64,000 bases of DNA. It comes from Eledone cirrhosa. Taxonomy: Eukaryota. Each line of letters opens with the position of its first letter. The first letter of the stretch is position 1. The stretch lies in contig OZ024740.1 of NCBI GenBank assembly GCA_964016885.1, positions 77,376,001 through 77,440,000 on the forward strand, read 5' to 3'. Below the pieces are notes generated by a model, which was not told the DNA's origin, made no database searches, and worked only from the letters and a program-made list of their open reading frames with translations. Below, one piece after another: positions 41,317 to 41,796 of the stretch. The translations under genes and the position numbers were made by a program.

Positions 41317-41796
41317 ATACATACAGGTACACATACATATATGCACGTATCAGTTTAGCGGACGCTTATTATAACGCCCGCTTTGTTCGTTTGTAAACAA
41401 ACTGAACAGCCTGAATTTATGCCGTACGGTGTTAAGGCAACCACGTCACCTTTTTGTTCAACACTGACACAGGAACGATGTACTAGTTTCAAGCTTGTTA
41501 GCTATCATCAGCACCGTATACCCTCTGCTCAGCCGTTAATTTTCATAAGGAAAGTATATACTTTCGAACGTTCAACCATCTGGCAGAAGGGGTATACGGT
41601 GCTGATGATAGCTAACAAGCTTGAAACTAGTACATCGTTCCTGTGTCAGTGTTGAACAAAAAGGTGACGTGGTTGCCTTAACACTGTACGGCATAAATTC
41701 AGGCTGTTCAGTTTGTTTACAAACGAACAAAGCGGGCGTTATAATAAGCGTCCGCTAAACTGATACGTGCATATATGTATGTGTACCTGTATGTAT
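41317..41796. mobile_element. Palindromic insertion (arms of about 210 bp, extending through TA runs to about 41082 and 41935) with a hammerhead on each arm
   Basis: 41317-41524 is the reverse complement of about 41589-41796. GTATACAGACGTACAGTAGCAT (about 41102) pairs with ATGCTACTGTACGTCTGTATAC (about 41893). Confidence 0.9.
41596..41638 (+). ncRNA. Type I hammerhead ribozyme (mirror copy on the minus strand at 41475-41517)
   Basis: Stem I ACGGUG/CAUCGU; CUGAUGA 41602-41608; stem II AGCU-AACA-AGCU; GAAAC 41623-41627; palindromic stem III ACUAGU; GUA triplet (cut after 41632). Confidence 0.88.

What the first reader, a model, noticed from the sequence alone, without database searches (positions are those of the whole stretch)
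41317..41796. Unrelated palindromic insertion with two intact divergent hammerheads sharing the array's loop signature
Seen in sequence: the arms have no obvious similarity to the 310-bp unit, yet each has an intact core (41596-41638 plus; 41475-41517 minus) with the same AACA loop II and a palindromic 6-nt stem III. The same GG(A/G)-UAU segment precedes stem I and faces UCC downstream (GGGUAU-ACGGUG/CAUCGU-UCC here; GGAUAU-GUAGUC/GAUUAC-UUCC in the array). Established knowledge: type I hammerheads use a stem I internal loop-loop II contact for activity at low Mg2+. Inference: a UAU bulge plus AACA loop is a conserved tertiary module across these families. The geometry is again head-to-head in (TA)n.
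Basis: partly seen in the sequence, partly recalled or inferred. Interest (0 to 1): 0.75.

Follow-up and report, generated by a model that had tools for sequence, protein, structure and literature searches.

The report
Two-armed hammerhead retrozyme with Penelope ends
This mirror-image stretch is one copy of a 460-base repeat carrying a self-cutting-RNA (hammerhead) motif, found about 25,000 times in this animal genome; the loop pattern it shares with a neighbouring repeat is the known standard design of this ribozyme type, and its ends suggest it was likely pasted in by a Penelope-type jumping-gene enzyme that copied one RNA from both sides of a DNA break.

Summary
The two hammerhead cores are real, but the boundaries are wrong. 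The palindrome is the middle of a 41071-42005 insertion of a ~460-nt tandem family (25,687 core matches), and the flanking (TA)n is internal to the unit. The shared 'signature' is a UAH/U internal loop plus a UAAYAA hexaloop, not an AACA tetraloop. It recurs in unrelated lineages (9 of 11 valid clusters) and matches the crystallographically known Schistosoma type I module (PMC2632901), so it is conserved but not new. The two cores lie on opposite strands and are a by-product of insertion. All 23 strand junctions are head-to-head. In 16 of 16 insertions one arm ends at unit position ~242 and the other at ~304, both in (TA)n. 98.6% of copies read through the cut site. This is the Penelope-like 'tail' footprint on an uncut or circular template. 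A U6-like octamer/TATA lies upstream of the ribozyme. Verdict: a non-LTR retrozyme, likely Penelope-mobilised. No RNA evidence was obtained. The scan noted the same architecture earlier in sister families of this genome.

The parts
41071..42005 (.). Whole two-armed insertion of the ~460-nt hammerhead repeat (family B), flanked by (TA)n target DNA
   Evidence: Unit mapped on the window; ends at unit positions 239 and 298
41071..41528 (-). Left arm: unit ~413-460 then 1-239; short 3' end; interrupted by the expanded internal TA and a nested element
41525..42005 (+). Right arm: unit 354-460 then 1-298; long ('tail') 3' end
41525..41528 (.). Head-to-head joint of the two 5'-truncated arms at a 4-nt microhomology
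   Evidence: sequence
41590..41642 (+). Type I hammerhead: distal helix 41590-92/41640-42, UAU bulge 41593-95, stem I 41596-601/41633-38, core 41602-08, stem II with U.U base and hexaloop 41609-22, palindromic stem III 41626-31, predicted cut after 41632, U1.7 at 41639
   Evidence: activity not tested
41471..41523 (-). Mirror copy of the same hammerhead, predicted cut between 41481 and 41480
41525..41560 (+). 3' part of the U6-like promoter region (AT-rich block and TATA-like box); the octamer box itself (unit 342-349) is truncated off in this copy
41286..41319 (.). Internal (TA)n microsatellite of the unit, left arm (continues 41122-41181 beyond the nested element)
41790..41891 (.). Internal (TA)n microsatellite of the unit, right arm
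41182..41285 (.). Nested insertion of an unrelated short repeat, itself two head-to-head pieces with a long and a short end
13564..18963 (.). Comparison family A: 310-nt unit array, 7 minus + 11 plus hammerheads, ends at unit 135 and 166

Best explanation
The locus is one truncated, two-armed copy of an abundant ~460-nt tandem repeat with a canonical-type I hammerhead motif (a non-LTR retrozyme), likely inserted by the reverse transcriptase and endonuclease of a Penelope-like element. Shown: unit structure, copy number, head-to-head polarity, two fixed 3' end sites used one per arm, (TA)n targets, read-through of the cut site, and RT plus GIY-YIG elements in the genome. Inferred: complete units are transcribed from a U6-like promoter just upstream of the ribozyme. 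The ribozyme, predicted weak as a monomer (U.U at the base of stem II, 1-2 bp stem III), would cut as a dimer through its palindromic stem III, helped by the standard UAH/U1.7-to-hexaloop docking, and the unit RNA would be circularised. A PLE protein dimer would cut both strands of (TA)n and start reverse transcription at two internal sites ~60 nt apart, one from each DNA end. Both cDNAs run through the ribozyme junction and are joined at their far ends by microhomology, which gives the mirror image. This copy lacks the octamer box and has one ribozyme per strand, so it is likely dead.
For: Family: 41 matches at 98-100% from 40 scored of 1,046 candidates; 25,687 core matches vs 0 control; tandem units of 460-526 nt; circular fold z -7.3 on 30 shuffles. 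Polarity: 23 of 23 opposite-strand junctions in 35 loci are head-to-head, at scattered 5' positions; 13 vs 0 within 1 kb in each of two partly overlapping 100-hit listings. Ends: 16 of 16 classifiable insertions (17 of 35 loci had both ends) pair one end at 239-249 with one at 298-304, each followed by TA-rich repeat. Families A (135/166) and C (~230/~300) show two sites too. This matches the PLE tail 'present only at one end' and the inverted 5'-truncated copy (PMC8557442 passages), and the two internal RT start sites with cleavage of both strands shown in vitro (PMC11167929 parts 1-2). Template: only 216 of 15,874 copies lack the expected base before the cut site, and 28 of 30 such loci fetched still have the hammerhead upstream. 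Opposite arms share 38% of rare alleles vs 3.7% between loci (27 pairs). Machinery: 10,595 GIY-YIG candidates, 150 scored; RT plus C-terminal GIY-YIG ORFs with a CxxxCxxC linker, one family also ending at two sites ~55 nt apart in TA (read by eye). Promoter: octamer-type box at -76 to -78 in 4 of 7 distinct U6 upstream sequences and in none of 6 U2 upstreams; B and C score above 300 of 300 shuffles.
Against: No cleavage, expression or circle was observed. The hammerhead fold is not the predicted minimum: monomer -0.2 vs -11.4 kcal/mol, double hammerhead -17.2 vs -27.7. No Rfam hit at gathering score; HH9 scores 17.8 bits against a cut-off of 52. No PLE with a terminal repeat homologous to family B was found among 34 loci, and the one PLE family whose own hammerhead I saw carries a minimal one without the loop module. 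No A>G editing bias (20 vs 26 T>C). Octamer-TATA spacing is 42-43 nt vs 46-48 in U6; the matrix rests on 3 promoters; the unit holds four T4 runs that could stop Pol III; family A has no such box (93 of 300 shuffles as high). In vitro only 1 of 9 Xenopus retrozyme dimers cleaved (bioRxiv 2026.07.22.740005). The 35 loci are mostly the best hits, hence young copies.
Confidence: 0.8

Rival explanations
1. Same Penelope-type insertion, but the template is the uncut linear multimeric transcript, not a circle; the ribozyme is then dispensable for, or acts apart from, transposition.
For: In the anole Poseidon element, hammerhead mutants insert normally and unprocessed RNA is the main template (PMC11167929). 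Read-through of the cut site fits either template. The B hammerhead is predicted weak. Tandem neighbours differ by 2.5% and in internal TA length.
Against: Stems I and II and the loop module are kept with compensatory changes across families, which implies selection on cleavage. Long near-identical arms (30 + 1 units; 99-100% identity in the window array) arise easily from a circle. Circles are the main RNA form in coral, mussel and axolotl retrozymes (PMC7229834).
Confidence: 0.3
2. One reading: the UAU bulge with an AACA tetraloop is a distinct, newly recognised tertiary module, and the paired divergent ribozymes have a joint function.
For: Bulge and loop co-occur in A, B and C and in 30 of 32 valid unique outside hits. 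The exact 3x1 internal loop is shorter than the 4x4 loop written for Schistosoma.
Against: The loop varies (AACA/AAUA) and the bulge varies (UAU 6, UAA 3, UAC 1, UGA 1 of 11). It aligns to the HH9 consensus and to the Schistosoma UAC / U / CAAAUA contact. The two cores are on opposite strands, and a read-through transcript folds into a ~200-bp hairpin that sequesters them. Many copies are single-armed.
Confidence: 0.08
3. The palindrome is a DNA-level fold-back or inverted duplication of a satellite unit, or an assembly artefact.
For: Arms are almost identical and share rare alleles. A long array at C3:12.27-12.32 Mb has irregular spacing, suggesting some DNA-level amplification.
Against: The two arms end at different fixed unit positions in 16 of 16 cases, polarity is strict, joints differ from locus to locus, and the nested element lies in one arm only. 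A public-run contig set also holds fold-back joints at various places.
Confidence: 0.05

Closest known systems
Metazoan non-LTR retrozymes (Cervera and de la Pena 2020, PMC7229834: passages and part 4 of 6 read; Li, Clavereau and Pollet 2026, bioRxiv 10.64898/2026.07.22.740005: parts 1-3 of 5 read)
   Same: Non-coding tandem units with one type I hammerhead each, low GC, thousands of copies, strongly self-paired. The axolotl forms show the palindromic stem III tetraloop (Amex1) and the U.U base of stem II (Amex2), both needing dimers.
   Different: Unit 460 nt, above the 170-400 nt of the 2020 paper though within the 51-972 range of the 2026 one. Internal (TA)n. Strict two-armed insertions with two fixed end sites, which the passages read do not describe (they propose PLE mobilisation from co-occurrence and pLTR homology). 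U6-like box. No RNA data here.
Schistosoma mansoni Sm-alpha type I hammerhead and Rfam HH9 (RF02275); loop-loop motif of Dufour et al. 2009 (PMC2632901, passages read)
   Same: 6-bp stem I, UA-Y bulge just before it, U1.7 opposite, 4-bp stem II with a pyrimidine-AA-N-N-A hexaloop ending in A.
   Different: Internal loop 3x1 rather than 4x4; UAACAA instead of CAAAUA; GUA triplet; U.U at 10.1-11.1; score far below the HH9 cut-off.
EN+ Penelope-like elements, Neptune/Nematis type by the linker motif (Craig et al. 2021, PMC8557442, passages; Frangieh et al. 2024, PMC11167929, parts 1-2 of 4)
   Same: Partial tandems, inverted 5'-truncated copy, tail at one end only, microsatellite targets, copies running through the hammerhead site.
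   Different: No ORF; tail ~60 nt rather than 30-40; canonical rather than minimal hammerhead; no homologous autonomous parent found.
Newt satellite 2 (Coats et al. 1994, not read; seen only as cited in PMC2220036)
   Same: Hammerhead tandem repeat with an internal snRNA-type promoter.
   Different: The newt promoter is cited as Pol II; here the box matches U6 (Pol III type), not U2, upstreams, with 4-5 nt shorter spacing; untested.

Membership tests
Type I hammerhead ribozyme | Conserved core C3-A9, G12-A15, U16, H17 | tested here: met
   GUA triplet, which occurs in natural hammerheads (abstract start of PMC1636495)
Type I hammerhead ribozyme | Paired stems next to the core (1.1-2.1, 10.1-11.1, 15.1-16.1) | tested here: inconclusive
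   1.1-2.1 and 15.1-16.1 pair; 10.1-11.1 is U.U, which fails the filter of PMC3088659 but is seen in the active-as-dimer axolotl Amex2
Type I hammerhead ribozyme | Covarying stems I and II | tested here: met
   (6 and 12 hand-picked representatives)
Type I hammerhead ribozyme | Internal loop 1 / loop 2 residues of the Schistosoma contact (U1.7, bulge pyrimidine, 3' A of loop 2) | tested here: met
   sequence level only:
Type I hammerhead ribozyme | Site-specific self-cleavage | not testable with these tools
   fold energies do not favour the active fold
Non-LTR retrozyme | Tandem non-coding units of a few hundred bp, one type I hammerhead each, many dispersed copies | tested here: met
   this copy itself has less than one unit per arm
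Non-LTR retrozyme | Expressed as unit-length linear and circular RNA | tested here: inconclusive
   only assembled contigs of runs of unrecorded kind were available
PLE-mobilised non-autonomous element | Inverted 5'-truncated copy, tail at one end, microsatellite target | tested here: met
PLE-mobilised non-autonomous element | Homology to the pLTR or 3' end of an autonomous PLE | tested here: inconclusive
   none in 34 GIY-YIG-linked loci, a small sample of 10,595 candidates
Autonomous Penelope-like element | RT + GIY-YIG ORF | tested here: not met
   no such ORF in the unit or at the locus
Type 3 Pol III (U6-like) promoter | Upstream box and TATA at host U6 spacing, driving transcription | tested here: inconclusive
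   box matches, spacing 4-5 nt short, activity untested

The most novel reading that the evidence does not exclude
A self-promoting RNA circle: each unit carries its own U6-type promoter, cuts itself as a dimer, and a Penelope-type protein dimer then primes the same circular RNA at two fixed internal sites from the two ends of one (TA)n break, so every insertion is a mirror image with one short and one long end. This would be genome-sequence evidence for rolling-circle, twin-primed retrotransposition of retrozymes, which the papers read propose but do not show.
Probability: 0.4. Interest if true: 0.72.

Novelty: new variant of a known kind. Interest (0 to 1): 0.46.

Why it matters
The loop signature itself matters little: it is the standard type I hammerhead contact. 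The insertion anatomy matters more. How animal retrozymes move has been proposed (PLE machinery, circular template) but not shown in the papers read, and PLE palindrome and tail formation is itself unexplained. A young family with ~25,000 copies, two mapped start sites used one per arm, and candidate enzymes in the same genome makes both questions directly testable in vitro. The U6-like box offers a testable answer to how such repeats are transcribed.

Tried and rejected
Rfam at gathering threshold: no hit in the window; miRNA-family hits at low score are artefacts of the palindrome and TA. Sequencing runs: no RNA holder listed. Four runs laid were contigs only and cannot show ends or expression; two of them held little or nothing of the stretch. 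ADAR-type A>G bias: not seen in 146 segments. Search for a PLE parent: B matches near GIY-YIG hits were separate insertions. Descriptors with shorter (878 vs 235 control) or longer (770 vs 452) stem II gave other, mostly decayed or minimal motifs, largely without the bulge/loop pair; not analysed further. One outside cluster of 19 hits has UAU and the hexaloop but no valid stem I by my scoring and was left among the 40 'invalid' clusters. Papers not held: PMC2764472, PMC4447102, PMC308520. The supplement of PMC7229834 was unreadable and may show these loop sequences or inverted arrays. A text search for the Schistosoma loop string found nothing. Searches for prior description of retrozyme end or inversion footprints or Pol III promoters listed none beyond the papers cited; the library lacks most subscription journals. 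The organism was not determined.

Full report
What is in the sequence. The stretch 41324-41789 is an inverted repeat with 200-bp arms that differ at one position. Each arm holds a hammerhead core at the coordinates given. Rfam finds nothing at gathering score, but the plus-strand core aligns along the whole HH9 model at E 0.026, 17.8 bits against 52, and the 310-bp array core at E 0.00055. Outside the ribozyme the two units are unrelated.

The element is larger than reported. A search of the window's genome (3.0 Gb) gave 1,046 candidates; the 40 scored gave 41 matches at 98-100%. Several loci are tandem, with units of 460-526 nt that differ mainly in an internal (TA)n run. Numbering the unit from the predicted cut site, the right arm is 354-460 then 1-298 (41525-42005). 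The left arm is about 413-460 then 1-239 (41528 down to 41071), with an unrelated 104-bp element nested in its internal TA. The arms meet at a 4-nt microhomology. The family core pattern has 25,687 matches against 0 for the reversed control.

The loop signature. A pattern with the loop left free found a third family C (9,683 matches, control 156). It has a 466-nt unit, the same hexaloop (UAACAA or UAAUAA) and a UAA bulge, and it is 67% identical to B over 238 nt. Within B, 51 of the first 100 listed copies have AAUA (hand count). Of these, 30 had UAH before stem I and 31 had U1.7, against 25 of 77 with UAH among the rest. By flank clusters the count is 9 of 11 against 7 of 40; by eye that is about 5 lineages, 4 with UAH. 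In 10 of 11 representatives a 3-bp distal helix forms after exactly one unpaired base, so the internal loop is UAH/U. Stems I and II covary; the distal helix only weakly in the small alignment (18/500 shuffles).

[quoted passage not shown] The 2020 retrozyme paper uses these contacts to call hammerheads canonical, and describes axolotl forms with a palindromic stem III tetraloop or a U.U stem II base that cleave well only as dimers (passages). Palindromic stem III in repeat-borne hammerheads is also noted in PMC3088659 (passages). The B ribozyme combines both weak features; its active fold is not the predicted minimum as monomer or dimer.

How the mirror image arises. In 35 loci, 23 of 23 opposite-strand joints are head-to-head and fall at scattered unit positions; listings give 13 vs 0 within 1 kb. 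Outer 3' ends cluster at two sites and are followed by TA-rich repeat. In 16 of 16 classifiable insertions one arm uses the site at 239-249 and the other the site at 298-304 (chance about 1.5e-5 if independent and equally used). Families A and C show two sites as well. This is the described anatomy of Penelope-like elements: an inverted 5'-truncated copy and a tail at one end only (PMC8557442). In vitro the tail corresponds to two internal reverse-transcription starts by a protein that cuts both strands and is predicted to be a dimer (PMC11167929). The genome has many RT plus C-terminal GIY-YIG ORFs. I did not find one whose terminal repeat is homologous to B in 34 loci.

The template was not a cut linear unit. 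Only 216 of 15,874 copies lack the expected base before the cut site, and 28 of 30 such loci fetched are point variants with the hammerhead still upstream. Opposite arms share 38% of their rare alleles against 3.7% between loci, as expected of one template or source. Circle and uncut multimer both fit; I favour the circle on the long homogeneous arrays and on published circles in other animals, but did not show it. No editing bias was seen.

Promoter lead. B and C share an octamer box (motif name recalled) 119 and 131 nt before the cut site, followed by a TATA-like box. The same box lies at -76 to -78 in 4 of 7 distinct U6 upstream sequences and in none of 6 U2 upstreams. A matrix from three U6 promoters scores B and C above 300 of 300 shuffles, but not A. 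Spacing to TATA is 4-5 nt shorter than in U6 and the unit has four T4 runs, so this is a lead of about even odds. Precedents are newt satellite 2 and schistosome Sm-alpha (cited in PMC2220036). The window copy has lost the box and has one ribozyme per strand; a read-through RNA would fold into one long hairpin. It is likely inert.

They are not independent support. One mentions editing scars and cut-unit ends in a 467-nt family, which I did not see in family B.

Verdict. The locus is a non-LTR retrozyme copy, likely Penelope-mobilised. The interest lies in the insertion footprint and promoter of the family, not in the loop signature or in this copy.

Noticed in passing
window 41182-41285; L362-L376: Short (~150 nt) non-coding repeat, 796 candidates in the genome, inserted in (TA)n as head-to-head pieces with a near-fixed 5' end and two 3' end sites ~80 nt apart; looks like a PLE-mobilised SINE-like family without a hammerhead (loci were selected by this query).
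   Followed up: partly
window 13564-18963: The 310-nt array has the same anatomy: 7 minus + 11 plus units, ends at unit 135 and 166, a 31-nt tail.
   Followed up: yes
L061-L090 (family C): 466-nt sister family, homologous to B, with canonical G-C stem II base, UAA bulge, GUU/GUC triplet and arrays of 30 units.
   Followed up: partly
L108, L118, L119: B-like copies that lost most of stem II and loop II but keep the UAU bulge; recurrent in the listing; natural loop-deletion variants.
   Followed up: no
L161, L163, L168, L156: PLE family with C-terminal GIY-YIG and a minimal hammerhead ~350 nt after the stop codon, ending in TA at two sites.
   Followed up: partly
G000:C3:12.27-12.32 Mb: Long family B array with irregular spacing in which many units have G at the cleavage position, predicted inactive.
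   Followed up: no
window 46765-48378 (-) and 55200-60270 (-): Two decayed LINE-type retrotransposon copies by ORF content (endonuclease- and RT-like frames; family not tested).
   Followed up: no
window 5625, 7422, 8083, 26170 (+); 36794, 46215 (-): Further CUGANGA...GAAA motifs, some as related pairs (7422/8083; 26170/36794), possibly other hammerhead-bearing repeats.
   Followed up: no
window 29671-29896: Perfect 5 x 45-bp minisatellite.
   Followed up: no
G000:C19:31.78-31.84 Mb; C3:307.35-307.45 Mb: Tandem clusters of U6 and U2 snRNA genes; the U2 upstreams also carry a TATA-like box near -30.
   Followed up: no
L190, L218 and related metagenome loci: An unrelated hammerhead repeat family with an 8-nt palindromic stem III and the same loop module; two loci hold divergent (minus, then plus) pairs.
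   Followed up: partly
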